Positions 5,981 to 21,649 of a DNA stretch of 32,000 nucleotides are shown piece after piece. Position 1 is the stretch's first letter. Every line of letters starts with the position of its first letter. Origin of the DNA: an uncultured Acidobacteriaceae bacterium (lineage in GTDB: Bacteria; Acidobacteriota; Terriglobia; Terriglobales; Acidobacteriaceae); NCBI GenBank assembly GCA_963833015.1, contig CAWHWJ010000020.1:67891-99890 (forward strand), in the 5' to 3' direction. The translations under genes were made by a program, and so were the position numbers. Below the pieces are notes generated by a model that had not been told where the DNA came from, made no database searches, and saw only the letters and a list, made by a program, of their open reading frames with translations.

Positions 5981-6141
5981 AATGTCAACAGGTTAATCGT
6001 TGAGTCTCAGCCTTTGCGTCTGATATCGACTATTGACTACAGGGCTTACCACGTTCCAAAACTAACTAAAGCACCTGGAAACGCGGTTTGGCGATGATGC
6101 GCCAATTGAGAATGCCTCTGGAAGATTGCCAGAATGTCAGC

Positions 6142-8760
6142 CTATTCGGCTCTCAATGCTTGCATCGGATCGAGGCGCGATGCACGCCACGCGGCGACGA
6201 TACATGCGAACGCAGCCACCGCGAGCAGCGTTGCGGAAACCGCGGCAAAAACCGCCGGATCGAGCGGCTTGATCTCATAGAGCAGGTCGCGCATCAACCG
6301 GCCGGCTGCCAGGCTTGCTGCAAGTCCCACCACAAGACCGAAGACCGCGGGTCGCATTCCATCCAGCAGCATCTTCTGCATCACGTGTTCGCGCTTTGCG
6401 CCCAACGCGATGCGGATGCCGATTTCGGTCGTCCGCTCCGTTGCGATGTACGACATCACCCCGAACAGGCCCACCGCGGCAAGGACCAGCGACAGCGTCG
6501 CGAAAGCGACGAGCAGCGTTGTGTTGAAGCTCTGGTCCAGGGTCGATTTGCCGAGCAACTGGTTCATGGTGAGCACGTCGGAGACGGGCAGATCGCTGTC
6601 CATCTCGGCGACGATGCGCTCAACCGGCAGAGCGTATTGCTCCACGTCATGACTGGAGCGAACGACAAGCGTGCCGACGGTCTCGACGCCGGCATCCAGC
6701 GGGAAGTACATCATAGGCAGCAGTTTTTCGCCGATCACGGAGCGCGTATCGCCGACGATGCCCACAACCTCCGCGGTGTGATGCCGAAGCAGGGCATTGA
6801 TGTGTTTGCCGACTGGGTCCTCGCCGGGAAAGTACTGATTAGCGAACGACTGGCTGATGACGACTTCATTGGCCGCATCCAATCGCTTACCGAAGTCAAA
6901 TGTGCGGCCGCGCAGGAGAGGAATACCCATCGAGGCGAAATACTTTGAATCGGCCCAAAGCTTATTGGCACTCAGTCCGCTGCCTTGCGGCAAGGGCGGG
7001 TGTTCGACAATAGTGAATCCCCAATCGCCCCAATATCCCTGGCCGGGAGCGACCGTGACAAAGCCCGCCGCATCCACGCCGGGCAGACCGCGGACGCGCG
7101 CGAGCAGCGTGTCGAAAAAGTTGGCGCGCTGGGCCGGCGTGGGATAGCGGGCATCCGGAAGGCCGAGATGCATGGTGAGCACGTTTTGCGTGATGCAGCC
7201 CATGTCGGCGGAGCGCAGCCGTTCGTAACTCTTGAGCAGCAGGCCGGCACCGATGAGCAACACCACAGTCAAGCCGACTTCGATCGCCAGCAACACCTTG
7301 CGCAGCGTGGCTCGCGCGCTACCGCCGCTCACCGAGCGCGAGGCCTCATACAACGCGCTCAGTACGCGTTTGTCGCTGGCGCTGAATGCCGTGATCAATC
7401 CGCAAAACAGCGCGCACAGCACGATGATGCCGACGGTGAACGCAGCTACCACGCCGTCGATGTGGATGGATTCGACGCGGCTCATGTCCTGGCGAATTCG
7501 CGTCAGCCATTGCAGCGCGGCGAAGGCCAGCAACAGGCCCAGGGCGCCTCCGGCGGCAGACAGCAGCAGGCTCTCCAACAGCCGTTCGCGCATCAGGCGC
7601 AGCCAGCCTCCGCCCAGCGCGGTGCGAATTGCCAGTTCCTTGCGTCGCGCCGCCGCGCGCGCCACCAGCAGGTTGGCCACATTCAGGCAGGCGATCAGAA
7701 GCAGGCAGCAGGTCGCCTCCAGAAGCACGTAGAGCGGCTTCTTGATGTCGCCCACGATGTCATCCAGCAACTGCCGGCTGCTGGCACTTCTGAATACGAA
7801 TGGGTCGTTGAGGTGCGCATCGTGGATGCGACGGGAGATCAGACTCAGGTCGGCTGCGCCCTGCGCCGCGCTGACTCCCGGCTTGAGCCGTCCAACCACG
7901 TTAAGCATGTGTATGCTGAACGAGGTCATCTGTTCCTCGGGCCTGTCGTGGTAGACCGATGTCCAGAGCTGCGTGGATGAGTCAGGAAAATTGAACCAGG
8001 CGGGCATGATGCCGATGACGGTATAGGGCTGGGCGTCAAGATAGATCTTCTGGTTGAGGATGGCAGGATCGCCGCCGAAGCGGCGCTTCCAAAGGCCCCA
8101 GCTGAGCAGTACCGTGGCGCTGGCGGCGGGGCTGTCATCGGCCTGCGAAAAATCGCGGCCGAGGGCGGGCTGCACGCCTAGTGTGCGTAGCAAATCCCAT
8201 GAGAGCTCTGCGCTATCGAGCTTCTCCGGCAGTTGCCCACCCGACCCGGAGAGTCCGACGCGGCTGCCGCGCGCGAGTGCAAGACTGCTGAAACTCTGGT
8301 TCTGCTTCTTCCATTCGGCATACATGCCTCCGGAGACCGTGTTGTAGGCTACCGTGTCGTTTTCATGAAGGCCCGATTCGTAAAGCATGACGAGGCGATC
8401 CGGATCCTGGAATGGCAAGGGCTTGAGCAAAACGCCACGCACTACCGTGAACAGCGCGACGTTAGCGCCAATGCCCAGCGCCATCACCAGGATGGCGATG
8501 ACGGTAAAGCCGGGGGTGCGACGAAGGGTGCGCAGACTGAAGCGCAGATCGCGTGCGAGGGATTCAAGCCAGTTCCAGGACCAGATGGCGCGAGTCTGTT
8601 CACGAATAAGAGTAGGATTGCCAAAGGCGCGCAAGGCTGCGTGGCGAGCTTCTTCGGGGGTCAGGCCGCGGTCGCGCTGCTCTTCTTCTTCGAGATCGAG
8701 ATCGGAACGCAGCTCCCGCTCCAGGTCGACATCCCGCTTCCGCGATGGCCACCATTTCAT
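6142..8760 (-). CDS. ADOP-type duplicated permease (MacB/FtsX-like), copy 2
   Basis: 872 aa. The N-terminus (MKWWPSRKRDVDLERELRSDLDLEEEEQRDRGLTPEEARHAALRAFGNPTLIREQTR..LRRTPGFTVIAILVMALGIGAN) has the same architecture as copy 1. The start is 1 nt after the PadR-2 stop, which suggests translational coupling. Confidence 0.9.
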   Translation of the reverse strand: MKWWPSRKRDVDLERELRSDLDLEEEEQRDRGLTPEEARHAALRAFGNPTLIREQTRAIWSWNWLESLARDLRFSLRTLRRTPGFTVIAILVMALGIGANVALFTVVRGVLLKPLPFQDPDRLVMLYESGLHENDTVAYNTVSGGMYAEWKKQNQSFSSLALARGSRVGLSGSGGQLPEKLDSAELSWDLLRTLGVQPALGRDFSQADDSPAASATVLLSWGLWKRRFGGDPAILNQKIYLDAQPYTVIGIMPAWFNFPDSSTQLWTSVYHDRPEEQMTSFSIHMLNVVGRLKPGVSAAQGAADLSLISRRIHDAHLNDPFVFRSASSRQLLDDIVGDIKKPLYVLLEATCCLLLIACLNVANLLVARAAARRKELAIRTALGGGWLRLMRERLLESLLLSAAGGALGLLLAFAALQWLTRIRQDMSRVESIHIDGVVAAFTVGIIVLCALFCGLITAFSASDKRVLSALYEASRSVSGGSARATLRKVLLAIEVGLTVVLLIGAGLLLKSYERLRSADMGCITQNVLTMHLGLPDARYPTPAQRANFFDTLLARVRGLPGVDAAGFVTVAPGQGYWGDWGFTIVEHPPLPQGSGLSANKLWADSKYFASMGIPLLRGRTFDFGKRLDAANEVVISQSFANQYFPGEDPVGKHINALLRHHTAEVVGIVGDTRSVIGEKLLPMMYFPLDAGVETVGTLVVRSSHDVEQYALPVERIVAEMDSDLPVSDVLTMNQLLGKSTLDQSFNTTLLVAFATLSLVLAAVGLFGVMSYIATERTTEIGIRIALGAKREHVMQKMLLDGMRPAVFGLVVGLAASLAAGRLMRDLLYEIKPLDPAVFAAVSATLLAVAAFACIVAAWRASRLDPMQALRAE

Positions 8761-8761
8761 C

Positions 8762-9118
8762 TCAGCTCTCCTCGGCGGCGGGCCACATCACGCGTGCGAC
8801 AGCTTCCGCCATCTGCTTCCACTGCGACTCTTCGACCACGAGCTGCTTCTTGCCTTTATCCGTCAAGCGGTAGTATTTGAATTCCCGATTTCGGTCCGGT
8901 GCAGTCTCCCATTTGGAGACAACCCATCCTCGCCGCTCCAGGCGATGCAGCGCGGGATAGAGCGAGCCGTGCTGCATCTGGAGGAATTCATTCGTGCTCC
9001 TCTGAATGTGCTTCCCGATCTGGTGACCGTGAGCAGGTCCATAGAGAAGGGTCCTCAAGATGAGCATGTCAAGCGTTCCCTGGAGGAGCCCGACCCGTTG
9101 CTGCGCTTGCTTGGCCAT
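8762..9118 (-). CDS. PadR family transcriptional regulator, copy 2
   Basis: 118 aa with PadR motifs: LLQGTLDMLILRTLLYGPAHGHQIGKHIQRSTNEFLQMQHGSLYPALHRLERRGWV..YYRLTDKGKKQL. Confidence 0.9.
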   Translation of the reverse strand: MAKQAQQRVGLLQGTLDMLILRTLLYGPAHGHQIGKHIQRSTNEFLQMQHGSLYPALHRLERRGWVVSKWETAPDRNREFKYYRLTDKGKKQLVVEESQWKQMAEAVARVMWPAAEES

Positions 9119-9128
9119 AGAAGACAGT

Positions 9129-9155
9129 CTACCCCCGATCTGGCAAGGATGGTAG
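9129..9155. promoter_or_regulatory. CTACC-N17-GGTAG inverted repeat upstream of PadR copy 2 (candidate operator; same half-sites as copy 1)
   Basis: Sequence ctacccccgatctggcaaggatggtag lies 11 nt upstream of the PadR-2 start. It shares the CTACC/GGTAG half-sites with 5951-5980. Confidence 0.3.
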
Positions 9156-9315
9156 GTGCGTCATGCACGGACAGCAGGAAAACCAGCTAGGACAGCCTCG
9201 TGTAAGACCGGCTGGCGAGGCCCATAGGAGTTGAGTTATGCATGGCGGAACGGCAACCTGCACATTTCCATGCGCTCTCGTTGGGATTGCCTGTATAGCG
9301 AACTAGAGGCCTGCT

Positions 9316-9621
9316 ATGCCGATCAATCATCGTATTCTTTCGTGTAGCAACGACGAGTATCTTCTTCGAGTCCGACACTGGGCCCTGGAGCATGCGTTGT
9401 TTGAGGTAGTAGACGTATACGGAGTCGACGCCTTTGAGAAGCTGAGAGAAGGCGATTTTGACGTTGTCCTCATCTGTCACTCGCTCTCAGATGCGGAACA
9501 ATGTCGCGTTCGAAAGACAGCCGAGGGACGCTGGCCGAACGCGGCCATTCTGAACCTAGATCGACCACTGGATACGCTGCGCGTGCACACGATACCGATG
9601 GCTGAGTTCCGACGCCGGTGA
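9316..9621 (+). CDS. Hypothetical protein with receiver (REC)-like fold features
   Basis: 101 aa, with AGAGG 8 nt upstream of the ATG. The pattern ILSCSNDEYLL..ALEHALFEVVDVYGVDAFEKLREGDFDVVLICHSL resembles a response-regulator receiver, with 'CHS' replacing the phospho-acceptor Asp region. This is a weak call made by eye. Confidence 0.35.
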   Translation: MPINHRILSCSNDEYLLRVRHWALEHALFEVVDVYGVDAFEKLREGDFDVVLICHSLSDAEQCRVRKTAEGRWPNAAILNLDRPLDTLRVHTIPMAEFRRR

Positions 9622-9814
9622 AGCGGTCTTCCATTCTGGACCTAGCCCGATCCTTGAGCCGTGAGTGTCCGCTGCCGGTCAACGGTGTTCAGAATCGGTC
9701 AGAGTGGATGTTGAACATGCCGAGGCACTGTACTAATTTCCAGTCTTTAGATGGTGAACGTTTGGCCTCCGGATTGCAGCTCTTCAGGTGTGAAGATCTC
9801 TTAAGGAGCTTCCC

Positions 9815-10297
9815 GTGATCAGCAAGAAGTGGATGTTCTTGTTGGCGCTCGCGTTGTTCATCTCGATTCTGCCCAGCAGCGGGCAAACAAGCAAACATCC
9901 CGACTCACTTTTCGAAACGATCAAGTCCCTCGATGCTAAGCTCTTTGACGCGTATAACCACTGCGACTTAGAGACGCTGGGCTCCATGGTTTCGGATGAT
10001 CTTGAGTTCTATCACGACCAGACAGGACTGACCGTAGGGAAAGCGCCGTTCCTCGCGGCAATTAAGCAGAACATCTGCGGTAAGGTTCAGCGGAACCTGC
10101 TAGAGGAAACCCTTGAAGTCTATCCGCTGAAGGGATACGGAGCGGTCGAAATCGGAATTCATCGATTCCATCATCCCAACCAGCCAGACAATGTTGGGGA
10201 TGCCAAGTTCGTGACAATCTGGCATGACGACAATGGGGTATGGAAAGTCACGCGAGTGATCAGCTACGAGCACAACCAGGGGCTACTGGCGAAATAG
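9815..10297 (+). CDS. Secreted NTF2-like / SnoaL-DUF4440-type protein
   Basis: 160 aa with a GTG start 6 nt after AAGGAG. It has a signal peptide (MISKKWMFLLALALFISILPSSGQ). The body (LDAKLFDAYNHCDLETLGSMVSDDLEFYHDQTG..GDAKFVTIWHDDNGVWKVTRVISYEH) is typical of DUF4440/NTF2-like domains. Confidence 0.75.
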   Translation: MISKKWMFLLALALFISILPSSGQTSKHPDSLFETIKSLDAKLFDAYNHCDLETLGSMVSDDLEFYHDQTGLTVGKAPFLAAIKQNICGKVQRNLLEETLEVYPLKGYGAVEIGIHRFHHPNQPDNVGDAKFVTIWHDDNGVWKVTRVISYEHNQGLLAK

Positions 10298-10959
10298 TGG
10301 CAAAACCAGTCATCGGATTCTGATCCATACTGCGGCCATTGTTGCAATCTGAAAACGGCCCGGCGAGGAATAGCAATGCGTCATCATCAGGATTGTTCTT
10401 TGGATGCCGTTAGTGTGCCACAGGATTGGCTCGAGGAAGAGGGTTTTCAAGACGAGCATTTCCAGAGTTCCCTGAACAAGATCGCTGGAGGATTCGGGTA
10501 TAGGCGTGGTTGCTCCTCTCGATAATCAAGATGTGTAATGCACGCTCCTGCCGATTGCCAAGAGGAGGGCGGATAATGCGGCGGCGTTTCAAAACTGCCA
10601 GCTTGCAGCAACTCTCTCACCTGTCGTGCCGCAGGCGTTGTTTCCCAACAGGGCATCCTTTGGTCGACCACGGCAAAAGCAAGATAGGTAACGGTAAAGC
10701 GAACTTCGCGCCATGGAATCGCATTCTGGCCATCAGCTCAGGACGTCAGGGTTCAACAAAGAGTATGAAACTAAGAATCGTAATTTACTATTGGCGCTAA
10801 CAGGAAAGAGCCAATTGCCTAAGCTCAGCTTCTCGGCGAAAGGTTTCAGTTCCCTGTTGAGAAGCATCTGCGCTTCGGCATAGCTGCAGGTTTCGATTGC
10901 GTGAATTGAACACAACCCATGAAGATTGAATGGGTATCTCGATATTTCCACATTGGGAC

Positions 10960-11047
10960 GAACTACGGGTCACTGGCCCACCTGACCCTTTCGGATGAAC
11001 TACGGGTCACTGCCGCTCTAAGGGTCACTGGCCCAACCTGACCCTTT
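10960..11047 (+). repeat. Iteron-like direct repeats: 3x GGGTCACTG, 2x GAACTACGGGTCACTG, 2x GGGTCACTGGCCCA(A)CCTGACCCTTT (each with an internal GGGTCA/TGACCC inverted repeat)
   Basis: Read directly. GGGTCACTG boxes start at 10967, 11004 and 11022. The 16-mers are at 10960 and 10997. The 24-25-mers are at 10967 and 11022. Confidence 0.8.
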
Positions 11048-11539
11048 GGCAGGTGGCAAACCGTTTCCAATAGCGTGCCCGAATCGGCGGCAAAAAGGAT
11101 ACATACACGTCTCATCTATCCGGGCAGGTGATTTTTTCTTATTTCCTTCTTTCCGGGGCTTTCAGCTCTGTGAAATCCCATATGCCTCTTTAGGTATCCT
11201 AAAGAAACATAGATGCCGTCTTATGTAGCGTCATCTCAGCTTTCCTATCGAACGCTTACGCACGGTCCCACAGGCACTCAATCACCGTCGTCGCTCCTTT
11301 ACATTGCTCAGTATGCTCAACCGACCACATTATGGGTGCGGGCGTTTCCACCGTTGGAAATTTGGACTCGAGTGTAACTTTGGGAACCCTTACTTCACGA
11401 CTTCACCCGCGTCTAGAGAGCTTTTATTTCTTTATTTCCCCGTCCGGTCCACAAACGTTAGGAGTTGCTCTGACACTCGGAACTGTGGCAAAGGGAGGCA
11501 ACAGCGTGGTTATGTGCTAAGGATTTGAGTGCTTCCGCG

Positions 11540-11595
11540 GGCAATACCGGGCAATGTGCCACGGCAATGGTGGTAAATATAGCAATTGTGGCAAT
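11540..11595 (+). repeat. Array of five (G/A)GCAAT direct repeats in 56 nt
   Basis: GGCAAT at 11540, 11550, 11563 and 11590; AGCAAT at 11581. The array ends 45 nt upstream of the tRNA-Ser-like fragment. Confidence 0.75.
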
Positions 11596-11633
11596 CTAGA
11601 ATCAGTAAGTTACTGGACCACAAAGCGTCGCCG

Positions 11634-11660
11634 GAGTTCGAATCCCACTCTCTCCGCCAT
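11634..11660 (+). other. tRNA-Ser-like 3'-end fragment (T-loop, acceptor 3' strand and CCA), not a full tRNA; att-like direct repeat copy 1
   Basis: GAGTTCGAATCCCACTCTCTCCGCCAT contains the T-loop consensus GTTCGAATCC, the acceptor strand TCTCTCC, discriminator G and CCA. There is no complementary 5' T-stem or acceptor strand upstream. The 20-mer at 11641-11660 recurs at 13162-13181. Confidence 0.65.
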
Positions 11661-11693
11661 AGCTCAGCTGGAAGTGGGCAAAAAGGGTTGGAA

Positions 11694-11981
11694 TCAGTCC
11701 GCCTGTTCCTTAGCGCAAAAGCAGCATTCGATCCCAGCGTCTTCGACGGCGGCCTTGACGGCATCGGTCATCTCGCGGCTACTTGAGAAAACGGTCCCTA
11801 ACTGACCATGCGAGAGCCGATAATTTCCCAATTTGTATGCTGGCTCATTTCCCCCCGCATCCGCGTCGTAGACTTCCCCGTGATACGGACAACGCACCAG
11901 CACCTTAGCATCAATCGCAATCTCCGTTGCGACTTGCCGCTGGTCTTCGTGGCGTTCGATCATTCTCTTTACCAAGCTCAT
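11694..11981 (-). CDS. Hypothetical small Cys/His protein (possible zinc-binding; CPYH...CCFC)
   Basis: 95 aa with protein-like composition: MSLVKRMIERHEDQRQVATEIAIDAKVLVRCPYHGEVYD..AYKLGNYRLSHGQLGTVFSSSREMTDAVKAAVEDAGIECCFCAKE. I recognise no domain with confidence. Confidence 0.6.
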   Translation of the reverse strand: MSLVKRMIERHEDQRQVATEIAIDAKVLVRCPYHGEVYDADAGGNEPAYKLGNYRLSHGQLGTVFSSSREMTDAVKAAVEDAGIECCFCAKEQAD

Positions 11982-12156
11982 AGCACAACTCCGGCGGATG
12001 TGATTTTAACGTGGACGCGCCAGTCTGTCATCATGGGCTGGTGCAAGGCGGGATGCTCAGGCGCAGGAATTTCTATCGCAGGCGACGCCTCCTGAATCTG
12101 CATCGCAACGGAACCGGGCGTAGGATGGGAACAAAGCCAGCACTAGGCATTAGACA

Positions 12157-13056
12157 ATGGCATCGCTAGTCGAAGAACTTCAGCGTGACGCATTAAATCC
12201 GGGCGTGAAGGTCAGCGATCTCTTGCGGAAAGCGAAGACAATTGCCATCAAGCTGGACCTCCCTGAGCTTGAGGCATGGGTTGAGAATGAATTGAACGGC
12301 TATCCGCCAGGCGACGTGCCCAAATACCGGGTCCTTGTTGGACAGGTAAAGGGGCAGAATCCGTTTCATGGTTGGCAGTCCGTCATTTTCCCTGACAACG
12401 ATACGCAAGAGGCATTCTCCAAACGGCACGTCTTCCAAAAAGTCGCGGAGTTGGAGAGTGTGATTGCCAATTCGGGCAAAGGAGGCGAGCTTCAGATTCC
12501 ACTGACTGCTAAGGCGAAACAGCTATTGATGCGAGCAACTGGATTCGACGAGGACTTTACAATCATGGTGAACGCAAGTGCCGTCGATGGGATTTTGGAC
12601 GCTGTGCGAAACGCATTGCTTGAATGGGCGCTGAAGTTGGAGAAATCAGGTATCAAAGGTAGTGGCGTGTCATTTTCAAGCGACGAGCGCAAGAAAGCAC
12701 ACGAGGCCCAGGCCGTTTACAACATCGGAACGATTGGGACGTTTACAGGAAATATGGGGTCCGGCAGCGGCAACTTTACTGTTGAAGGCAACATCGTCAA
12801 TGCAGATTCCAAAGGCGCTATCGAAGGTCTAATTGGGCGGATTCGATCCAACGAGGCTCAACTTGGCTTGGAACCTCCATCTGCAAAGGAGCTGGATAAA
12901 GCCCTAGACGGTCTTCAACACGAAATACAGCGCCCGGACCCGAGGGCCAACCGGGTTAGAGAGTTTCTAGGTTCGATTCGCAACATTGCGGAAGGTGCGG
13001 TTGGAAGCCTTGTAGCTCAAGGCATCTTGTACGAGATTTCAAAGCTAATGGCTTGA
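12157..13056 (+). CDS. AbiTii-like domain protein (candidate abortive-infection / phage-defence protein)
   Basis: 299 aa. The N-terminus LVEELQRDALNPGVKVSDLLRKAKTIAIKLDLPELEAWVENELNGYPPGDVPKYRVLVGQVKGQNPFHGW, followed by ..AVRNALLEWALKLEKSGI, matches my memory of the AbiTii (Lactococcus AbiT second component) domain pattern. The assignment is from recall, not a search. Confidence 0.55.
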   Translation: MASLVEELQRDALNPGVKVSDLLRKAKTIAIKLDLPELEAWVENELNGYPPGDVPKYRVLVGQVKGQNPFHGWQSVIFPDNDTQEAFSKRHVFQKVAELESVIANSGKGGELQIPLTAKAKQLLMRATGFDEDFTIMVNASAVDGILDAVRNALLEWALKLEKSGIKGSGVSFSSDERKKAHEAQAVYNIGTIGTFTGNMGSGSGNFTVEGNIVNADSKGAIEGLIGRIRSNEAQLGLEPPSAKELDKALDGLQHEIQRPDPRANRVREFLGSIRNIAEGAVGSLVAQGILYEISKLMA

Positions 13057-13161
13057 ACGCGGCTCGATAGCTCAGGCTCCCGTTAGCGTAGTAAAGCCTT
13101 AGTAATGGGTTAAAATCTGGCAAACTCCTGTGTTCATGCGGGTATCAGATGTTTTCTGTAA

Positions 13162-13181
13162 AATCCCACTCTCTGCGCCAT
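13162..13181 (+). repeat. att-like direct repeat copy 2 (19/20 identical to 11641-11660)
   Basis: AATCCCACTCTCTGCGCCAT versus AATCCCACTCTCTCCGCCAT. Same strand, 1521 bp apart. Confidence 0.7.
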
Positions 13182-13313
13182 TCCTGCTGTCCGCTTCGGT
13201 ATCTCCTACCTCACACTTGCTCGGCAACACTGGGTCATTCACTGAGTGGTTGCCGAAACTATTGTTTTTAAGACAAACGCAAATTTGTGCCGTAATCTCA
13301 TTTTGGATTCGAC

Positions 13314-14237
13314 ATGCGTTCTTTCCTGAGGTTCTTGTTAGCGGCTGCGATTGTGACGTCTTGCCCGGGCCTGCTTCGGGCGCAGGACCTCTCACCTCGC
13401 GCCTATGTGATCACACCTGTGCGTTCGAATGCGGTAAATCTGACCTATTCGTTTTTCGATGGCAGCATCATTCTCGGTAACGCTGTCCCGATTGTCGGCG
13501 CGACAGGGCGCGTCAATGTTCAGATTTTGAGCTACTATCATTCCCTGAATTTCTTTGGGCGGTCGTCCAGTGTTGCTGTTGTTTTGCCCTATGGAGTTGG
13601 CAACTTTGACGGAACCGCGGCCGGTGTTCAAGCCCATCTCTACCGTTCAGGCCTGCTGGATTCCACATTCCGCTTTTCGGTGAATCTGAAGGGCGGTCCG
13701 GCAATGGACTTGCGGGAAATGAGTAAGTGGAAACAAAAGACACTGATCGGAGTCAGCTTTAAGTTCACGGCTCCAACGAGTCAGTATGACCCGACAAAGC
13801 TCGTCAATTTCGGCACGAATCGCTTTTCTTTTGAGCCGGAAGTTGGCTTGTCGAAACGCCGCGGACATTGGCTGATCGATACCTATGGCGGCGTATGGTT
13901 TTTCACTGAAAACCCGAATTTCTTTCCCGGAACGCCAGAACAATCGAAGAATCCAGTTGGAGCATTCGAAGGTCACCTGAGCTACGATGTGAGACCTCGC
14001 CTGTGGACCTCGCTGGATGGCAACTTCTGGTTCGGAGGCAGCACAAGCCTCAATGGCGTTCCCAGTCCGCAGACGTCGGAGAGGAACTCGCGCGTCGGGG
14101 CCACCGTGTCCTTCCCAGTGACAAAACACCAATCGATCAAATTCAGTTACAGTGACGGCGCCTACATACGGTATGGCGGAAACTTCCAGAATATTTCAGT
14201 AGGCTGGCAGTATTCGTGGATTAACAAACCCAAATAG
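13314..14237 (+). CDS. Outer-membrane beta-barrel 'transporter' (MetA-pathway-of-phenol-degradation-like family)
   Basis: 307 aa with a signal peptide (MRSFLRFLLAAAIVTSCPGLLRAQ). DLSPRAYVITPVRSNAVNLTYSFFDG and the alternating beta-strand pattern ending in an aromatic-rich C-terminus fit this outer-membrane protein family. Confidence 0.65.
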   Translation: MRSFLRFLLAAAIVTSCPGLLRAQDLSPRAYVITPVRSNAVNLTYSFFDGSIILGNAVPIVGATGRVNVQILSYYHSLNFFGRSSSVAVVLPYGVGNFDGTAAGVQAHLYRSGLLDSTFRFSVNLKGGPAMDLREMSKWKQKTLIGVSFKFTAPTSQYDPTKLVNFGTNRFSFEPEVGLSKRRGHWLIDTYGGVWFFTENPNFFPGTPEQSKNPVGAFEGHLSYDVRPRLWTSLDGNFWFGGSTSLNGVPSPQTSERNSRVGATVSFPVTKHQSIKFSYSDGAYIRYGGNFQNISVGWQYSWINKPK

Positions 14238-14246
14238 GCCGCTCGC

Positions 14247-15641
14247 TTACTGCTGCCAACCGCCGCCAAGCGCGTTGTAAAGCTCCACCAGGGCCAGCCT
14301 TTCAGCGAGCTGCGCCTGGGCCAGTGCAATCTGCGCGTTGAAGTAACGCGTGTCGCTGTCGAGGACTTCAAGGTAGCTGGTGACGCCGCCGTTATATTGA
14401 AGATTCGCGAGGCGAACCGCGTCTCCTGCCGCGGCAGTTAACAACTCCTCCTGCGCCCGGTACTCCTGATCCTTCCGGTAACCAACCAGCGAGTCTGAGA
14501 CTTCACGAAACGCTTGCTGGATTGACTGCTGATAGAACAAAAGCGCTTCCTGCTCCTGCGCCTCAGTCAACCTTACATTGGCGCGGAGTTTCCCCGCGGT
14601 AAAGATCGGTTGAGCTAATTGGCCACCGAAGCTCCATAAACCAGCGGGCCCGGTAAACAGGCTGCTAAGAGCTGAACTTTGGTAGCCAGCTATGGCGGTC
14701 AGACTAATGTCGGGGAAATATGCCGCTTTCGCTACTCCGATCTGTGCGTTGGCTGCCACGAGTTGTTGCTCGGCAGACTGCAGGTCGGGGCGACGCTCCA
14801 GCAGCGCCGATGGGAGACCGGCAGGAACGGTCGGCGGAAATTTGTTTTCGACTAACGGCTTTCCGCGAGTAATCGGTTCCGGATTATCACCCAATAAAAT
14901 GCTGATGAGGTTTTCCTGCTGCTCAATGCTCCGCTCCAGAGCGGGAATGTTCGCCGCTGCTGCGTAGACCAGTTGTTCAGACTGGCGAACATCGAGCATG
15001 GAGACCGTTCCGCCGGTTTCCCGTATCCGCACCAGGCGCAACGACTCGTTGCGGGAGGTGAGTGTGTCTCGAGAGATCTGCATCTCGGCATCCAGCTCGA
15101 GCAGTTGGAAATAGGCCGACGCAACATTACTCACCAAGCTCCAGATCACAGCTTTCTGGGCCCACTCAGTCGCGAGAAGACTGGCGCGTGCCGATTCGGT
15201 TGCTCTTCGATACTTTCCCCAGAAGTCGATTTCCCAGGCCAGCGATAGATTTACCTGATTGGCGCTGGTATTGGTAGTCGGTAAGGTCTTTGTCTGGGGG
15301 AGTTGCACGTTGGACGCACTTGCTCCACCGTAAATGGATGGAAACTGATCCGCGCGGGTGATGCCCAGCGAGGCTTGCGCCTGCAACACGCGAGTTGCCG
15401 CGATGCGCACGTCATAGTTTTGCGCGATTGCCTTATGGATCAGCGCCTGTAGCTGCGGATCATCGAAGACAGTCCACCACTTTTCATCGGCAAAGGACGC
15501 AGTGGTCTGCGGCGGAGCATTGGGATCGAGCCCGCGGTAGGCATCGGGAGCCGCGATGGTTGGACGCTTGTAGTTGGGCCCGACGGTGCATCCGGTCAGG
15601 AACAGGAGGGCTGTTGCAATGAGCCGATGTCTGGCGATCAT
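14247..15641 (-). CDS. RND efflux outer-membrane factor lipoprotein (NodT/OprM family)
   Basis: The track ORF is 14247..15848. I prefer ATG 15641 (MIARHRLIATALLFLTGCTVGPNYKRP), which gives a lipobox plus the canonical NodT N-terminus. The two TolC-like repeats end in LYNALGGGWQ. Confidence 0.9.
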   Translation of the reverse strand: MIARHRLIATALLFLTGCTVGPNYKRPTIAAPDAYRGLDPNAPPQTTASFADEKWWTVFDDPQLQALIHKAIAQNYDVRIAATRVLQAQASLGITRADQFPSIYGGASASNVQLPQTKTLPTTNTSANQVNLSLAWEIDFWGKYRRATESARASLLATEWAQKAVIWSLVSNVASAYFQLLELDAEMQISRDTLTSRNESLRLVRIRETGGTVSMLDVRQSEQLVYAAAANIPALERSIEQQENLISILLGDNPEPITRGKPLVENKFPPTVPAGLPSALLERRPDLQSAEQQLVAANAQIGVAKAAYFPDISLTAIAGYQSSALSSLFTGPAGLWSFGGQLAQPIFTAGKLRANVRLTEAQEQEALLFYQQSIQQAFREVSDSLVGYRKDQEYRAQEELLTAAAGDAVRLANLQYNGGVTSYLEVLDSDTRYFNAQIALAQAQLAERLALVELYNALGGGWQQ

Positions 15642-15643
15642 GG

Positions 15644-18600
15644 CTAGTCTCCCTCCGAGGGCGTGACGGTTGGCAACGTAGTTGGCGGCGATTCTTTCCC
15701 TTTCTTGAAGAAGTTGCCGAAGCGCTCCACTACGTCGAACGAGACGGGAACGAAGAAGATGGCGATGACGGTAGACGCGAGCATGCCGCCGATGACCGTC
15801 GTTCCAAGCACCTGGCGCGAAATGGCGCCTGCTCCGAATGCCCGCCACAACGGCACGCAGCCAAGAATGAAGGCAAATGCTGTCATCAGGATTGGCCGCA
15901 GTCTCACCCTGGCGCCGGTTAGAGTCGCCTCGATGAGCGGCTTGCCCTTGTCGTATTCAAGCTTGGCAAATTCTACGATGAGAATGGCATTCTTGGACGA
16001 CAGTCCTATCAGCATAACCAGCCCAATCTGGGCATACACATTATTGTCGAACCGGCGAAGGTAGAGCGTTAAGAACGCGCCGAAAACGGCAATGGGAAGT
16101 CCCAGCAATACGCTGAAGGGCAGCGTCCAGCTCTCATATTGCGCGGCCATGATGAGGAAAACCACAAACAAGGCCATGCCAAAAATAATGCCGGGCGAAA
16201 CGCCTTGCGCCGCCTTTTGCTCCTGGTACGACATGCCGGAGTAATCGAAGCCCATCTGGCCAGGCATCGTCTTGTGGAAGACGTCTTCCAGCGCAGCCAT
16301 GACCTGAGCGGAACTGTAGCCGGGCGCGGCCGCGGCATTAATCTGCACGCAGTTGAAGAGGTTGTAGCGCATGACAAACTCGGCGCCACTGCGCGCATCG
16401 GTGGTGGTCAGCGTACTCAACGGAACCATGTCGCCGGAAGCGTTCCTGACGTAAAACTTGCCGAGATTGTCTGCCCTGGTCCGGAAGTCTCCGTCGGCCA
16501 TGAACATATACCTGCCATTGCAGGCCGAAGCGGTTGAAGAAGTTAATCAGCGAGCCGCCCATGAACGTCTGCACCGTCTGGTACAGGTCGCTCAGCTGGA
16601 TCTGCTGGGTCATCGCCTTGGCGTTGTCCACCTTTACCCCGACCTGGGGAACGCCGAACAGGGCTGTGGTAAAGAGCCCCGCCAGTTCCGGGCGTCTGCG
16701 TGCCTCGGCCATATACACCTGGGTCTGTTTCGCGAGAAAGTCAATGCTGCCGCCAGATCTGTCTTCAAGAATGAAAGTGGCGCCTCCTGACGTGCCCACG
16801 CCGGGGATCGCGGGCGGCGGGAACGAGAAGGCAACTCCCCCTGGGACTCTTGACAGGGCCTGCTGAAGGTGAGCTTTGATCCCCTCGTAACTCTCCTCCG
16901 GAGTTTTGCGTTCATCCCAGGGCTTCAGTGAGATAAAGAAGAATGAACTGTAGGTGGCGGCGACGCCGCTCAACAAGCTGTATCCGTTGACAGTGCTGAC
17001 GTATTGCACGCCAGGTGTGTCCATCATGATCTTCTCGACTTCGCGCGCGGCCTCCGAGGTGAGTTGCAGAGACGAGGCGTTAGGCAGTTGCAACCCGGCA
17101 TAAAGGTATCCCTGATCTTCATCGGGGAGAAAGCTTCCCGGGAGCTGTTTTCCGAAGTAACCCGCACCCACCGCCAGCCCGGCGAGCAGGAGAAACGCCA
17201 GAGCGGCTTTGTGGATCAGGTGCCTGCATATATTCACGTACCCGTCGGTGGCGCGACCGAAGACATTGTTGAACCCGCGAAAGAAGGCGCCGAGGGGTCC
17301 TCGAGACTCTTTCTTGGGACGCAACAGCATGGCGGAAAGCGCCGGGCTTAGGGTGAGCGCGTTGAATGCCGAGAAGAGCACCGAAATCGCGATGGTGATT
17401 GCGAACTGCTTATAAAGCTGGCCAGTAATACCAGGAATGAAGGCCGTGGGAATGAATACTGCAGCCAGGATGAGTGCGATCGCAATGACCGGTGACGAAA
17501 CTTCCTCCATCGCTTTGATGGTTGCGTCGTGAGGCGTCAGACCGAGCTCGATATTGTGTTCGACCGCCTCCACGACGACGATGGCATCGTCGACGACCAG
17601 TCCAATTGCCAGAACCATACCCAAAAGCGACAGGGTGTTGATGGAGAAGCCCAGCATGGGAAAGACCATGAAGGTCGCAATCAGAGAGACAGGAACGGCG
17701 AGCAGAGGAATCAGCGTGGCTCTGAGGCCCTGCAGGAAAATGAAGACGACGAGGATGACCAGAAGCAGAGCCTCTCCCAGCGTCTTGTAGATTTCGTGGA
17801 TGCCGGCACTGACCGCGAGTGTCGTGTCGAGTGCGGTAATGTAGTCCAGCCCCTGTGGGAACCTGCCTTTCGCCTCGTCCATCATTTTGAGGACAGCGGC
17901 TCGCGTTTGCAGCGCGTTGCTGCCAGGAGTGAGGTAGAGCGCGAGGAGGGCAGCGGGCTGAGAAGGCTTATTCTCTCCCGACACTCCCAACCGCGCAACA
18001 TAGGAATAGTATTGCGATCCAAGTTCCACACGCGCCACGTCTTTCAGCCGCAGGATTGACCCGTCGGACTGAGCGCGGACGACGATCTCACCAAACTCCT
18101 CGGCCGTGGGCAGACGCCCCGGAGCTCGCACGTTGTAGGTGAATTGCTGGCCGAGTGGGACGGGCTCGCCTCCAACCTGGCCCGCAGGATTGACCTTGTT
18201 TTGAGCCTTGACCGCATTCGTGATGTCGGAGACGGTCACGCCCAGGCTCGCCAGCTTGTCAGGGTTCACCCAGATGCGCATCGCATAAGGCCCGGCGCCG
18301 AATATCTGTACCTGTCCGACCCCCGAGATACGGGTGAGCGCGTACTGCAAATTGATGGTGGCGTAGTTAGCCAGAAAAATGCTGTCGTATGTGCCGGAGG
18401 GCGAGTAGAGGTCGAGCAGCATAAAGGGCGCCGTCGTCCCCGGCTGAACGATTACACCTTGCTGGGTTACCTCGGAGGGCAGTTGCGAGGCGGCCTGGCC
18501 CTGCCGCATCTGCGCCAGAATCTGATCGGTGTTGATGTCGGTTCCCAGCGCGAAGTCAACGTACAGCACCATCTTTCCGCCAGAGCTCGCGCTCAAGGAG

Positions 18601-18836
18601 TACATGTAATTCATGCCGCTGACGCCCGACATCTGCTGTTCTATCGGTGTTGCAACGGACTCCGCAATCGTCTGGGCGTCCGCGCCGGGGTAGGTGGCTT
18701 GTACCTGGATCATCGGGTCGGCGATATTGGGGAACTGTGCCGTAGGTAGCTCGAGCACCGCGACCCCGCCGGCCAGCACCATCAAAATTGCGATGACTAT
18801 CGCGACGATGGGGCGATTAATAAAGAATTTCGACAT
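15644..18836 (-). pseudogene. RND (HAE1/AcrB-MexB-like) efflux permease, reading frame split by a 1-nt insertion near 16497-16502
   Basis: Two overlapping ORFs (16338..18836 and 15644..16507) together cover a full ~1060 aa AcrB-like protein. The frame changes at ..FNRFGLQWQVYV|HGRRR.., while the other frame continues MADGDFRTRADNLGKFYVRNASGDMVPLS. GTTCATGGCCGAC carries one extra base relative to an in-frame VQADGDF/VHADGDF. This could also be a sequencing error. Confidence 0.8.
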
Positions 18837-18838
18837 GA

Positions 18839-20414: not shown

Positions 20415-20506
20415 ATGGCGGAGAGGGAGGGATTCGAACCCCCGATACCCTTACGAGTATGCCTGATTTCGAGTCAGGTGCATTCAACCGGGCTCTGCCA
20501 CCTCTC
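20415..20506 (-). tRNA. tRNA-Ser (anticodon CGA), CCA encoded
   Basis: The reverse complement reads GGAGAGGTGGCAGAGCCCGGTTGAATGCACCTGACTCGAAATCAGGCATACTCGTAAGGGTATCGGGGGTTCGAATCCCTCCCTCTCCGCCA. It has a 7-bp acceptor stem, the anticodon arm CCTGA-CTCGAAA-TCAGG, a long variable arm and the T-loop TTCGAAT. Confidence 0.9.
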
Positions 20507-20512
20507 CGTGTT

Positions 20513-21649
20513 TTAAACCATTTTATTTCTGCTATTTACAGAGCACCCCTGTTTCGTTGGTTTTGCATGAAATGGGCTGGTGTCCGTTCTGGTGTCCCTT
20601 CCCTTGTCGGAGTTCACCAAGCGGTCCACTGCCGATGCCTGGTGTTCGGGAGCGAGATGGGAATAGCGCATGACCATCTGAAGCGTTCTGTGCCCGAGCA
20701 GCTCTGCCACCGTGCGCAGATCAACCCCGGCCATAACCAGTCTACTGGCAAAGGTATGCCGGTTGCAATGCCAGGTATACCCCTCGATCCCAGCCTCTTC
20801 GATCGCGGTGGGAAACCAGCCGCGCGATCCCTGAAGCGCATTCCCGCTGTGCACGGAAGGAAAAACCGGATCGGTCCCTCTCTGCCTTCCCGGGCCGTGT
20901 AACTGCTTCAAGGCTGTCAGAGCGATCGCGTTAAGAGGAATCGTACGGGGATTGCCGTTCTTGGTTTTAGGAAGGTGAATCTGCCGGCGGTCGAAATCCA
21001 CCTGGTTCCAGCGCAAGCCGTACTGTTCGCTCATCCGCATCCCAGTATGGACTGAAAGAAGGAGGTAAGGCAGAAACTCCGGGAAGCGGCTCTTGATGGC
21101 GGCTCTTAATCGAACCTCTTCTTCGTCGGACAGAAATCTGACTCGTCCAGTTCCCTCCGTCTTCCGCCGGATACGCGCCGCGGGATTCCGCTCAATCTTC
21201 TCGTTGTCGATGCCCACCCGAAAGATCAAAGAGAAAGTCGCCTGCCAACGATTCCGGCTACTTGCCGCCCAGTTCCTCTCCACGGACTGCTCCGTCAGCC
21301 ATGAAACAATCTCGTTCTTCCGGATGGAATCGGCTGGGCGGGAGCCGAATGCTGGAAGGAGCTGATTGATTCGCAAGCGAAGTTCGTAGGTCTGTTTGGC
21401 GCTGTTCTCAGCCTGACTGTGTATAAGTGCATCCTGGCAGAGCTCTTGGAAAGAGATAGCCTTTGCGCGGAGGTTCTCCGGCAGTTTCATCCCCTCAAGC
21501 TTCTGCGTATGACGTTTCGCCAGCAGCTTTTCCGCAACGCTGCGAGTCCCAGCCTTTTCGCGGCGCTTTCTTCCGTCCGCATCGGTCCAGCGAATCCACC
21601 AGATCCCGCTTCCCTTCTCTCTTTCAAAAACTCCACGCTTTGGTGCCAT
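20513..21649 (-). CDS. Tyrosine-type site-specific recombinase / phage integrase
   Basis: 378 aa. The N-terminal arm/SAM-like region is GIWWIRWTDADGRKRREKAG. The catalytic region is HTGMRMSE..WHCNRHTFASRLVMAGVDLRTVAELLGHRTLQMVMRYSHL. The stop codon is 6 nt from the tRNA-Ser 5' end. Confidence 0.9.
   Translation of the reverse strand: MAPKRGVFEREKGSGIWWIRWTDADGRKRREKAGTRSVAEKLLAKRHTQKLEGMKLPENLRAKAISFQELCQDALIHSQAENSAKQTYELRLRINQLLPAFGSRPADSIRKNEIVSWLTEQSVERNWAASSRNRWQATFSLIFRVGIDNEKIERNPAARIRRKTEGTGRVRFLSDEEEVRLRAAIKSRFPEFLPYLLLSVHTGMRMSEQYGLRWNQVDFDRRQIHLPKTKNGNPRTIPLNAIALTALKQLHGPGRQRGTDPVFPSVHSGNALQGSRGWFPTAIEEAGIEGYTWHCNRHTFASRLVMAGVDLRTVAELLGHRTLQMVMRYSHLAPEHQASAVDRLVNSDKGRDTRTDTSPFHAKPTKQGCSVNSRNKMV

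What the first reader, a model, noticed from the sequence alone, without database searches (positions are those of the whole stretch)
11540..13181. 1.5-kb islet with an AbiTii-like gene bracketed by direct repeats of a tRNA-Ser 3' end
AATCCCACTCTCT(C/G)CGCCAT occurs twice on the same strand (11641-11660 and 13162-13181; 19/20 identical). Copy 1 extends into an unmistakable T-loop (GTTCGAATCC), so the repeats are att-type scars of integration into a tRNA-Ser gene. Between them lie only two divergent genes: a 95-aa Cys/His protein and a 299-aa protein whose N-terminal half looks like the AbiTii abortive-infection domain. No integrase lies inside the islet. The core differs at only 2 of 19 positions from the 3' end of the intact tRNA-Ser(CGA) at 20.4 kb, which has an integrase beside it. 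This suggests a minimal, possibly trans-mobilised defence islet, and a two-gene combination I do not recognise as a described system.
Basis: partly seen in the sequence, partly recalled or inferred. Interest (0 to 1): 0.7.

Follow-up and report, generated by a model that had tools for sequence, protein, structure and literature searches.

The report
Decayed tRNA-Ser island remnant carrying AbiT-like gene
This 1.5-kb stretch is a worn-down leftover of mobile DNA that once inserted into a serine tRNA gene of a soil acidobacterium and still carries one intact phage-defence-type gene, so it is an ordinary case and not a new two-gene system.

Summary
AATCCCACTCTCT[C/G]CGCCAT occurs at 11641-11660 and 13162-13181, where chance predicts no matches. 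The repeats come from tRNA-Ser(GGA), not from the tRNA-Ser(CGA) at 20.4 kb. Related metagenome contigs (about 90% nt identity) carry an intact tRNA-Ser(GGA) directly upstream of the same outer-membrane-protein gene. Their homology to the window starts exactly at the left edge of copy 2. Copy 2 is therefore the displaced chromosomal 3' end (attR).

Copy 1 matches the tRNA 3' end at 25/25 positions but has non-tRNA DNA on both sides. There is no intact tRNA-Ser(GGA), and none of the relative's left flank, anywhere in window 1-11635. The segment is therefore not a simple 1.5-kb insertion. It is most likely the distal, integrase-less unit of an accretion or rearrangement at this tRNA.

The 299-aa protein is a strong AbiTii hit. 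Its family also carries an AbiTi-like C-terminal module (43 of 44 members), and the two modules occur elsewhere as adjacent genes. It is a single-chain AbiT. The 95-aa protein belongs to the lambda Ea8.5 family, a gene typical of att-proximal prophage regions. The two genes never co-occur in about 80 other loci, so a two-gene system is not supported. This is a new member of known kinds, of modest interest.

The parts
11540..11595 (+). Cluster of GGCAAT direct repeats (4 exact copies plus one AGCAAT), 41-96 nt left of core copy 1. Candidate arm-type recombinase or accessory-protein binding sites of the DNA to the left (inferred).
   Evidence: Four of the 12 + strand GGCAAT copies in the 32-kb window fall within 56 nt. 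None of 2000 random placements gave 4 copies in 60 nt. Function is inferred from the position next to an att core.
11636..11660 (+). Core copy 1: the 3' end of tRNA-Ser(GGA) from the T-loop to CCA+T (GTTCGAATCCCACTCTCTCCGCCAT). It has non-tRNA DNA on both sides, a P-O-P'-type junction.
   Evidence: It matches L092:6361-6385 at 25/25 positions. The five bases to its left are CGGAG where the tRNA has its T-stem strand GTGGG. ARAGORN and Rfam find no tRNA here.
11694..11981 (-). A 95-aa lambda Ea8.5-family protein (hybrid homeodomain/zinc-finger fold, CxxH...CxxC), apparently intact. Best read as a relic of a temperate-phage or integrative-element att-proximal region.
   Evidence: Pfam PF20735 gives E=6.8e-8, 33.5 bits against a cutoff of 27. 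It also hits phrog_6325 at 2.4e-10 and PDB 2M7A/2M7B at 1.7e-7 and 3.7e-7. Homologues P0122 and P0123 are each the first gene after a tRNA-Pro at an island edge. Forty viral-contig relatives were found.
12003..12031 (-). Sigma-70-like promoter match (ATGACA-17-TAAAAT) upstream of the Ea8.5-like gene, in the 175-nt divergent intergenic region.
   Evidence: Consensus scan. The number of matches is not above the shuffle expectation, so this is weak evidence.
12157..13056 (+). A 299-aa single-chain AbiT-like protein. It has an N-terminal AbiTii alpha+beta domain (res 1-183), a disordered Gly-rich linker (185-213) and a C-terminal four-helix AbiTi-like module (216-298).
   Evidence: Pfam AbiTii E=3.8e-47. 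PADLOC AbiTii E=7e-49 and AbiTi E=5.8e-5 at res 243-297. Across the family, AbiTii hits 44/44 members and AbiTi 43/44 (best 5.7e-13). AlphaFold2 mean pLDDT is 82.9. The two modules occur as adjacent genes in L369/L370.
13162..13181 (+). Core copy 2: the displaced chromosomal 3' end of tRNA-Ser(GGA) (attR), with one substitution, continuous with the native downstream flank.
   Evidence: L092:6366-7444 aligns to window 13162-14240 at 90% identity. Homology begins exactly at 13162, inside the relative's tRNA T-loop.
13182..14237 (+). Native chromosomal flank and the MetA-pathway-type outer-membrane-protein gene (13314-14237), which lies directly downstream of tRNA-Ser(GGA) in relatives.
   Evidence: Pfam PF13557. 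Synteny with L092-L096.
20416..20507 (-). Intact tRNA-Ser(CGA), a different isoacceptor in inverted orientation. It is not the source of the repeats.
   Evidence: ARAGORN and Rfam. Its 3' end differs from copy 1 at 2 of 20 positions. It is conserved at the same place in L092.
20513..21649 (-). Tyrosine integrase abutting the 5' end of tRNA-Ser(CGA). It belongs to a separate window-specific insertion that also holds a group II intron.
   Evidence: Pfam Phage_integrase E=8.7e-29. Homology to L092 stops at 20542. Group II intron: RF02005 at 23773-23999 and the RT ORF at 22189-23751.

Best explanation
The segment 11661-13161 is an integrase-less remnant at the tRNA-Ser(GGA) integration site of a Terriglobia-like acidobacterium.

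An element carrying about 20-25 nt of the tRNA's 3' end in its attP integrated by site-specific recombination. This displaced the chromosomal 3' end, which is now copy 2 (attR), still joined to its native flank and OMP gene. A later recombination at the same core then joined unrelated, non-tRNA DNA to the left of the core. That event was either a second integration into the regenerated tRNA (tandem accretion) or a core-mediated rearrangement. It produced copy 1, a P-O-P'-type junction. The older unit lost its recombination module and kept two intact genes.

One gene is an Ea8.5-family zinc-finger/homeodomain protein. In lambda this gene sits next to xis-int-att, and its closest homologues are the first gene after a tRNA at island edges. 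The other is a stand-alone abortive-infection-type gene that fuses the two components of lactococcal AbiT into one chain. The AbiTii alpha+beta domain is the presumed phage sensor or adaptor. The AbiTi-like helical module is the presumed effector.

The two genes are neighbours by history and do not form a system.

Shown: the repeats, the empty site, the right breakpoint, the domain assignments, the split/fused relationship and the lack of co-occurrence.

Inferred: the order of events, the arm-site role of the GGCAAT cluster, and the defence function and mechanism.
For: Repeats and the empty site:
- The repeats are far beyond chance.
- Relatives L092-L095 carry an intact tRNA-Ser(GGA) directly upstream of the orthologous OMP gene (93% aa identity).
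- blastn homology to the window starts exactly at 13162. Copy 1 matches the tRNA 3' end at 25/25 positions.

Left side of the segment:
- To the left of copy 1 the five bases are CGGAG where the tRNA has its T-stem strand GTGGG. It is therefore not a truncated tRNA.
- A GGCAAT cluster lies next to the core.
- There is no tRNA-Ser(GGA) and no counterpart of L092's left flank in window 1-11635.
- GC content is 0.52-0.53 for 9156-13161 and 0.57-0.59 for the flanks.
- No integrase or integrase remnant is detectable.

Use of this core as an att site:
- The same 23-nt core occurs as a non-tRNA fragment in 30 of 120 IMG/VR contigs. About 15 of these share one phage-type left arm.

The 299-aa protein:
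- AbiTii hits are strong.
- 43 of 44 family members also hit AbiTi.
- A 158-aa AbiTii gene followed 13 nt later by a 128-aa AbiTi-like gene occurs in L369/L370.
- Family members sit on 166 plasmids and 28 viral contigs.
- No conserved neighbour is found in 34 loci.

The 95-aa protein:
- Ea8.5 assignment.
- Homologues lie directly after a tRNA-Pro at island edges. In prophage contigs they lie near integrases.
- Lambda ea8.5 lies in the exo-xis region (PMC4195576, PMC8614690).
Against: - The left end of the insertion could not be mapped. No available relative is syntenic with window 1-11635. Tandem accretion therefore cannot be separated from rearrangement, and an intact tRNA-Ser(GGA) with an integrase may lie just beyond the window.
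- The genes left of 9155 (PadR/MacB permeases, lactonase, oxidoreductase) look chromosomal and not island-like.
- The AbiTi match of the window protein alone is weak (E=5.8e-5).
- The fold search found no significant structural relative, so the effector mechanism is unknown.
- The divergent arrangement of a small putative DNA-binding protein next to the Abi gene is also what a local regulator would look like.
- No phenotype data exist.
Confidence: 0.62

Rival explanations
1. The 1.5-kb segment is a complete, minimal att-flanked defence islet that an integrase encoded elsewhere moves as a unit, for example the one next to tRNA-Ser(CGA). Its two divergent genes form an undescribed two-gene defence system.
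For: - Both cores are nearly perfect (25/25 and 19/20) and in direct orientation.
- Both genes are intact and full length relative to their homologues.
- A tyrosine integrase lies 7.3 kb away.
- Integrase-less att-flanked elements that are mobilised by related elements are known from the literature (CIMEs; my own knowledge).
Against: - The two genes show no co-occurrence in 33 other AbiTii loci and 43 other Ea8.5 loci.
- The AbiT-like gene already contains both AbiT modules.
- The window integrase sits at the 5' side of a different isoacceptor, whose 3' end differs from copy 1 at 2 of 20 positions.
- No relative carries the islet alone inserted in an otherwise intact tRNA.
- No copy of either junction was found in IMG/VR.
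- The only other contigs with the islet are identical to the window.
Confidence: 0.1
2. The same history applies, but the Ea8.5-like protein has been co-opted locally as a transcriptional regulator or antitoxin-like controller of the divergently transcribed AbiT-like gene. The pair is then functional here even though it is not conserved elsewhere.
For: - The two genes are divergent and share a 175-nt intergenic region containing a promoter-like site.
- The Ea8.5 fold is a homeodomain/zinc-finger hybrid, which is compatible with nucleic-acid binding (PDB 2M7A/2M7B match; PMC8614690).
- Both genes stayed intact while everything else was lost.
Against: - The pairing is not conserved.
- AbiT-like homologues stand alone next to unrelated genes.
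- The promoter match is not above chance.
- DNA binding by Ea8.5 proteins is not established in the papers found.
Confidence: 0.12
3. The 299-aa protein is not a defence protein in this organism. It is an AbiTii-domain protein with another role, or a decaying passenger, and the segment is simply junk left by old integrations.
For: - No member of this fused family has been tested.
- No significant fold match points to an enzymatic effector.
- The immediate neighbourhood holds no other recognised defence gene.
- NCBIfam and PHROGs give no hit for it.
Against: - The ORF is full length, and 19 invariant plus 27 nearly invariant family positions are retained.
- The family is carried by plasmids, prophages, and integrase- or TA-rich islands.
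- Both modules match models built from an experimentally validated Abi system (PMC13064643).
Confidence: 0.15

Closest known systems
Lactococcus lactis AbiT (two-component abortive infection system, AbiTi + AbiTii)
   Same: The N-terminal 183 residues match the AbiTii domain (Pfam PF18864 E=3.8e-47; PADLOC E=7e-49). The C-terminal helical module matches the PADLOC AbiTi model in 43 of 44 family members. The two modules also occur as adjacent genes (L369/L370). The family is carried on plasmids, prophages and islands, as Abi genes usually are.
   Different: Here the two components form one polypeptide of 299 aa, joined by a disordered Gly-rich linker. The host is an acidobacterium and not a lactococcus. 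Only the C-terminal half of the AbiTi profile (positions 60-113 of 114) is matched in the window protein. No phenotype is known. Other AbiTii-domain proteins described in the literature carry HEPN domains (PMC3710099), and this one does not.
tRNA-targeting integrative elements and tandem genomic-island arrays; cis-mobilisable elements (CIMEs) left by decay of such elements
   Same: The direct repeats consist of the tRNA 3' end from the T-loop onward. An empty site with an intact tRNA exists in relatives. The cargo is compositionally distinct. The unit is integrase-less and bracketed by two att cores, one of which is a junction between two non-tRNA arms.
   Different: No intact tRNA and no cognate integrase are visible at the proximal end within the window. 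The unit is very small (1.5 kb, two genes). Excision or mobilisation is untested. The left neighbour looks partly chromosomal.
Bacteriophage lambda Ea8.5 and its prophage homologues (PF20735; PDB 2M7A, 2M7B)
   Same: Pfam hit above the gathering score. The size is the same (about 90-100 aa) and the CxxH...CxxC zinc-ligand pattern is present. It sits close to an att site. Its 3' end faces the att core, as in lambda's ...ea8.5-xis-int-att order.
   Different: No xis or int lies between it and the core. Sequence identity to the solved homologues is low. Function is unknown in every member.
PADLOC candidate system PDC-M14 (protein B)
   Same: The C-terminal module of 37 of 44 family members matches the C-terminal third of PDC-M14B models (best E=6e-10).
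   Different: Only the C-terminal module is shared. No PDC-M14A-like partner is present. The window protein's own match is marginal (E=0.005).

Membership tests
AbiT (AbiTi + AbiTii) abortive infection system | Presence of the AbiTii domain | tested here: met
   Pfam PF18864 gives E=3.8e-47 and 161 bits against a cutoff of 27.6, covering residues 3-185 and profile positions 1-188 of 189. PADLOC AbiTii gives E=7e-49.
AbiT (AbiTi + AbiTii) abortive infection system | Presence of the AbiTi component | tested here: met
   It is present as a C-terminal module. The window protein gives E=5.8e-5 at residues 243-297, on profile positions 60-113 of 114. 43 of 44 family members hit AbiTi, best 5.7e-13. 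Stand-alone 126-128-aa relatives of the module hit AbiTi over profile positions 22-113, and one is encoded 13 nt after an AbiTii gene.
AbiT (AbiTi + AbiTii) abortive infection system | Two separate genes, both required | tested here: not met
   There is a single 299-aa ORF. No separate AbiTi gene lies in the islet, and the 95-aa neighbour has no PADLOC hit.
AbiT (AbiTi + AbiTii) abortive infection system | Abortive-infection phenotype against phages | not testable with these tools
   This needs phage challenge of a host expressing the gene.
tRNA-integrated genomic island (tyrosine-recombinase type) | Direct repeats derived from the 3' part of a tRNA gene at both ends | tested here: met
   Copy 1 matches the tRNA-Ser(GGA) 3' end at 25/25 positions and copy 2 at 19/20.
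tRNA-integrated genomic island (tyrosine-recombinase type) | Intact tRNA gene reconstituted at the proximal end | tested here: not met
   ARAGORN and Rfam find no tRNA at or left of copy 1 in window 1-13181. The five bases left of copy 1 are CGGAG where the tRNA has its T-stem strand GTGGG.
tRNA-integrated genomic island (tyrosine-recombinase type) | Own integrase gene | tested here: not met
   No integrase ORF or remnant is found in 9000-13400.
tRNA-integrated genomic island (tyrosine-recombinase type) | Empty site in related genomes with boundaries at the repeats | tested here: inconclusive
   The right boundary coincides exactly with copy 2 (window 13162 = L092:6366, inside the intact tRNA). 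The left boundary is not mappable, because L092's left flank is absent from the window.
Cis-mobilisable element (CIME) | att sites on both sides and no recombination or transfer genes | tested here: met
   Two cores lie in direct orientation. The only genes between them are the Ea8.5-like and AbiT-like genes.
Cis-mobilisable element (CIME) | A cognate integrase-bearing element integrated in tandem that can excise it | tested here: inconclusive
   The DNA left of copy 1 has a GGCAAT repeat cluster, but no integrase lies within the window on that side.
Lambda Ea8.5 family (PF20735) | Profile match above the curated threshold and the zinc-ligand pattern | tested here: met
   33.5 bits against a cutoff of 27. 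PDB 2M7A/2M7B give E=1.7e-7 and 3.7e-7. C31/H34 and C86/C89 are present, and C86 and C89 are invariant in alignment A3.
PADLOC PDC-M14 | Full-length PDC-M14B together with a PDC-M14A partner | tested here: not met
   Only profile positions 157-246 of 275 match, at E=0.005. No A-type hit was found for the neighbour.

The most novel reading that the evidence does not exclude
The 1.5-kb unit is still a working, integrase-less 'defence cassette'. Its two near-perfect tRNA-Ser(GGA) cores would let a neighbouring or incoming element's integrase excise and re-insert it, by CIME-like cis or trans mobilisation. It would then be one of the smallest att-flanked vehicles for a single-gene (single-chain AbiT) anti-phage function.
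Probability: 0.1. Interest if true: 0.55.

Novelty: new member of a known kind. Interest (0 to 1): 0.3.

Why it matters
This is mainly a clean worked example, not a discovery. It shows how comparison with an empty site changes the reading of a pair of tRNA-derived repeats. The scars come from tRNA-Ser(GGA), the segment is a decayed unit of a larger or rearranged insertion, and its two genes are not partners.

The most useful by-product concerns AbiT. The roughly 300-aa AbiTii-domain family is common on Klebsiella, Aeromonas, Vibrio and Pseudomonas plasmids, in prophages and in Acidobacteriota. It appears to be a fusion of both AbiT components, and a split version (a 158-aa gene followed by a 128-aa gene) exists elsewhere. 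The AbiTi-like C-terminal module is also attached to pentapeptide-repeat and PDC-M14B-type N-termini.

This gives a simple, testable design for working out the still unknown AbiT mechanism: a sensor domain and a shared helical effector module in one chain.

Tried and rejected
- **Genome-contig scan with the OMP.** It returned 79 loci of paralogues at or below 69% identity. None shares the window's neighbours, and the window's own genome is not in that collection.
- **Metagenome-contig scan with the MacB-like permease.** It returned 80 loci, some up to 98% identical, but homology is confined to window ~6076-9155. The left breakpoint could not be mapped.
- **tRNA-Ser near the MacB module in L139.** This looked like a lead but is tRNA-Ser(GCT) in 1 of 20 loci, so it is a coincidence.
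- **Rfam at permissive threshold on 10300-13320.** Only chance-level hits. Copy 1 is not a degraded but recognisable tRNA.
- **Pfam on small ORFs of the ORF-free 10300-11640 stretch.** Nothing found.
- **tblastn with 8 integrases against 9000-13400.** Nothing found.
- **tRNA-derived direct repeats around AbiT-like genes in L003, L005, L007, L008 and L009.** None found, so att bracketing is not a family trait.
- **Exact search of IMG/VR for the two junction sequences (possible attP).** No matches.
- **Literature and records.** Bouchard 2002 and the record I recalled for the AbiT plasmid were not held. Searches for PDC-M14 and AbiTi added nothing beyond two papers.
- **Considered and rejected: the RT next to the integrase as a defence reverse transcriptase.** It is a group II intron (RF02005).
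Full report
**Observation.** The 20-mer AATCCCACTCTCTCCGCCAT occurs at 11641-11660 (+). A one-mismatch copy lies at 13162-13181 (+). A two-mismatch copy is the 3' end of the only tRNA gene in the window, tRNA-Ser(CGA) at 20416-20507 (-). Dinucleotide-preserving shuffles gave a mean of 0.00 matches. Copy 1 continues upstream into GTTCGAATCC, a T-loop. Between the copies lie two divergent ORFs: 11694-11981 (-), 95 aa, and 12157-13056 (+), 299 aa.

**Source of the repeats.** Close homologues of the outer-membrane-protein gene just right of copy 2 (13314-14237) were found in metagenomes. Contigs carrying the 93%-identical protein (L092-L096) have an intact tRNA-Ser(GGA) on the same strand, directly upstream of that gene. 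By blastn, L092:6366-7444 aligns with window 13162-14240 at 90% identity. Homology starts exactly at the first base of copy 2, inside the relative's T-loop. L092:6361-6385 matches window 11636-11660 at 25/25 positions. The RND efflux operon and tRNA-Ser(CGA) further right are also syntenic (L092:10657-16928 = window 14247-20542).

The repeats are therefore 3' ends of tRNA-Ser(GGA), not of the CGA isoacceptor. Copy 2 is the original chromosomal 3' end, displaced by an insertion and still continuous with its native flank. That is an attR. The same 23-nt core is present in at least 120 IMG/VR contigs. In 30 of these it is a fragment outside any tRNA. About 15 of those share one non-tRNA left arm, which is how a phage attP or attR looks.

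**Why it is not a simple 1.5-kb islet.**
- Copy 1 has non-tRNA DNA on both sides. The five bases to its left are CGGAG where the tRNA has its T-stem strand GTGGG. Neither ARAGORN nor Rfam, even at a permissive threshold, sees a tRNA there.
- In att nomenclature, copy 1 is a P-O-P'-type junction and not a B-O-P' attL.
- No intact tRNA-Ser(GGA) lies anywhere in 1-13181. The genes left of the tRNA in L092 (peptidase S9, MatE, MFS, Ldh) have no counterpart in the window.
- Relative to the empty site, what is 'extra' is therefore everything left of 13162 that the window shows.

Two readings remain open. One is a tandem array whose proximal element reaches beyond the window. The other is a recombination at the core that replaced the tRNA body with other DNA.

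I could not separate these readings. The genome scan with the OMP returned only paralogues without synteny. The metagenome scan with the MacB-like permease returned 80 loci that share only window ~6076-9155, even at 97-98% identity.

The local evidence fits foreign DNA on both sides of copy 1:
- GC content is 0.519 for 9156-11635 and 0.526 for the islet, against 0.593 and 0.568 for the outer flanks.
- The stretch 10300-11640 has no ORF of at least 90 aa apart from one TTG-start ORF with no family hit, and no protein-family hits at all.
- Four GGCAAT repeats plus one AGCAAT lie 41-96 nt left of the core. None of 2000 random placements reached 4 copies in 60 nt. These are plausible arm-type binding sites, which is an inference.
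- No integrase or integrase remnant is detectable in 9000-13400.

**The 299-aa protein.** It is a strong AbiTii match (Pfam PF18864 E=3.8e-47 over residues 3-185; PADLOC E=7e-49). It also has a weak AbiTi match at residues 243-297 (E=5.8e-5). Its family is large (244 hits, about 300 aa each, mostly from Acidobacteriota metagenomes). Family members also sit on 166 plasmid records (Klebsiella, Aeromonas, Vibrio, Pseudomonas and others), all listed rows annotated as hypothetical or unannotated. A further 28 are in viral contigs.

Scanning 44 family members against PADLOC gave AbiTii in 44/44, AbiTi in 43/44 (best 5.7e-13) and PDC-M14B in 37/44. The AlphaFold2 model (mean pLDDT 82.9) shows three parts:
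- an alpha+beta domain, residues 1-183
- a disordered Gly-rich linker, residues 185-213
- a four-helix C-terminal module, residues 216-298

A library-wide phmmer search with residues 186-299 found the module always at the C-terminus of its host protein. The hosts are proteins of about 300 aa (the fused form), 110-128-aa stand-alone proteins that hit AbiTi over most of its profile, PDC-M14B-like proteins, and proteins with pentapeptide-repeat N-termini. One stand-alone protein (P0308, 128 aa) is encoded 13 nt downstream of a 158-aa AbiTii-domain gene, in a toxin-antitoxin-rich stretch (L369/L370).

Split in one genome and fused in another, the two modules belong together. The window protein is a single-chain version of the two-component lactococcal AbiT system. 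That system is known to need both genes. Phage escape mutations map to the major capsid protein and early genes, but the mechanism is unknown (PMC13064643). Anantharaman et al. described AbiTii as an N-terminal alpha+beta domain fused to HEPN effectors in other bacteria (PMC3710099). Here the AbiTi-like helical module takes that place.

Foldseek against PDB and BFVD gave nothing at E<=0.001. YicC endoribonuclease (8VER), which the review aligns with AbiTi, appears only at E~4. The sensor/effector division is therefore an inference, and the effector chemistry is unknown.

**The 95-aa protein.** It belongs to the lambda Ea8.5 family:
- Pfam PF20735 gives 33.5 bits against a cutoff of 27.
- phrog_6325 gives 2.4e-10.
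- PDB 2M7A and 2M7B give 1.7e-7 and 3.7e-7.
- The CxxH...CxxC pattern is kept.
- It has no PADLOC hit.

In lambda, ea8.5 lies in the exo-xis region beside xis, int and att (PMC4195576, PMC8614690). Its two closest full-length homologues on longer contigs are each the first gene downstream of a tRNA-Pro. Both sit at the edge of islands carrying restriction-modification genes, together with HTH/M78 genes in one and resolvase and Prim-Pol genes in the other. Forty more relatives sit in viral contigs, several within 1-5 kb of a tyrosine integrase. In the window its 3' end faces the core, 33 nt away. This is the lambda order with xis and int missing. The gene is best read as a relic of the element's att-proximal region.

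**Are the two genes a system?** Apart from contigs identical to the window, the two genes never co-occur.
- No Ea8.5-like gene lies within 2 kb of the AbiT-like gene in 33 other loci. No neighbour family there is shared by more than 4 loci, and that largest family consists of tandem AbiTii paralogues.
- None of the 43 other Ea8.5-like loci has an AbiTii gene.
- AbiT-like genes in other loci are not bracketed by tRNA repeats.

The two-gene-system idea is not supported. A purely local regulatory relationship cannot be excluded. The genes share a divergent 175-nt intergenic region containing a promoter-like site that is not above chance.

**The integrase at 20.5 kb.** It abuts the 5' end of tRNA-Ser(CGA), which is inverted relative to the repeats. 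Homology to L092 stops at 20542. The insertion it belongs to also holds a group II intron (RF02005 at 23773-23999; RT at 22189-23751). Nothing links it to the tRNA-Ser(GGA) cores.

**Verdict.** The segment is a decayed, integrase-less unit at a tRNA-Ser(GGA) integration site. It carries an intact single-chain AbiT-type gene and a phage-relic Ea8.5-type gene. It is a new member of known kinds. It has modest interest of its own (0.3), with a useful lead on AbiT architecture.

The most novel reading not excluded is a still-mobilisable CIME-like defence cassette. I put that at about 0.1.

Noticed in passing
window 6076-9155: The PadR regulator (8762-9118, -) and the MacB/FtsX-type permease (6142-8760, -) form a sharply bounded cassette of about 3.07 kb. 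In 80 JGI metagenome loci, including ones 97-98% identical in nucleotide sequence, homology to the window stops at these same two ends, most sharply at 9155. The flanks are unrelated, also in the sampled comparison of the loci with one another.
   Followed up: partly
window 15644-18836: The AcrB-type RND transporter is split into two overlapping ORFs (832 and 287 aa). The cause is a single 1-nt indel relative to the intact 1063-aa gene of relative L092 (97% nt identity). This is either a frameshifted pseudogene or a sequencing error.
   Followed up: partly
window 20513-24738: A tyrosine integrase abuts the 5' end of tRNA-Ser(CGA), and synteny with L092 ends at 20542. L092 retains a 58-nt remnant that matches the 3' part of the integrase gene (window 20711-20768). 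An 18-nt inverted repeat (20546-20563 / 24721-24738) brackets the integrase together with a group II intron (RT 22189-23751; RF02005 23773-23999).
   Followed up: partly
window 10300-11640: This 1.3-kb stretch has no credible ORF and no Pfam or Rfam hit. It contains three copies of CTA[CA]GGGTCACTG[GC]C[CG]C[AT] (10963-11035). Two of these copies begin the palindrome GGGTCA-N10/11-TGACCC. Purpose unknown; possibly operator or arm sites of a lost element.
   Followed up: partly
P0255, P0353; L369:2472-3347: The AbiTi-like C-terminal module is also found behind pentapeptide-repeat domains (432- and 454-aa proteins) and on PDC-M14B-like proteins. In L369 a split AbiTii (158 aa) plus AbiTi-like (128 aa) gene pair sits among ParE, BrnT/BrnA and Polbeta-NTase genes.
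   Followed up: partly
L246:2042-2070; L245:1-550: The site upstream of this OMP gene varies among relatives. L246 (81% aa) has a degenerate tRNA-3'-end-like sequence (GGAATCCCCCTCTCCGCAAT) about 1 kb upstream, with an unknown 205-aa ORF in between. L245 (94% aa) has neither a tRNA nor a fragment within 500 nt.
   Followed up: partly
L092:7445-10656 versus window 14240-14247; window 31304-31342: Relative L092 has an extra 3.2 kb (signal peptidase S26 and an MscS-type channel) between the OMP gene and the RND operon. This segment is flanked by 38-39-nt elements that match window 31304-31342 at 92% identity. They look like a short dispersed repeat marking another indel.
   Followed up: no
L198, L199, L201, L203 (viral contigs): Several prophage-type contigs carry two AbiTii-family genes in tandem.
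   Followed up: no
window 27574-30150: An IS110-family transposase fragment (27574-28077) and an IS5-like DDE transposase (29038-30150) lie here. Further right are 102-nt and 51-nt dispersed repeats (30350-31414). The right third of the window is rich in mobile-element debris.
   Followed up: no
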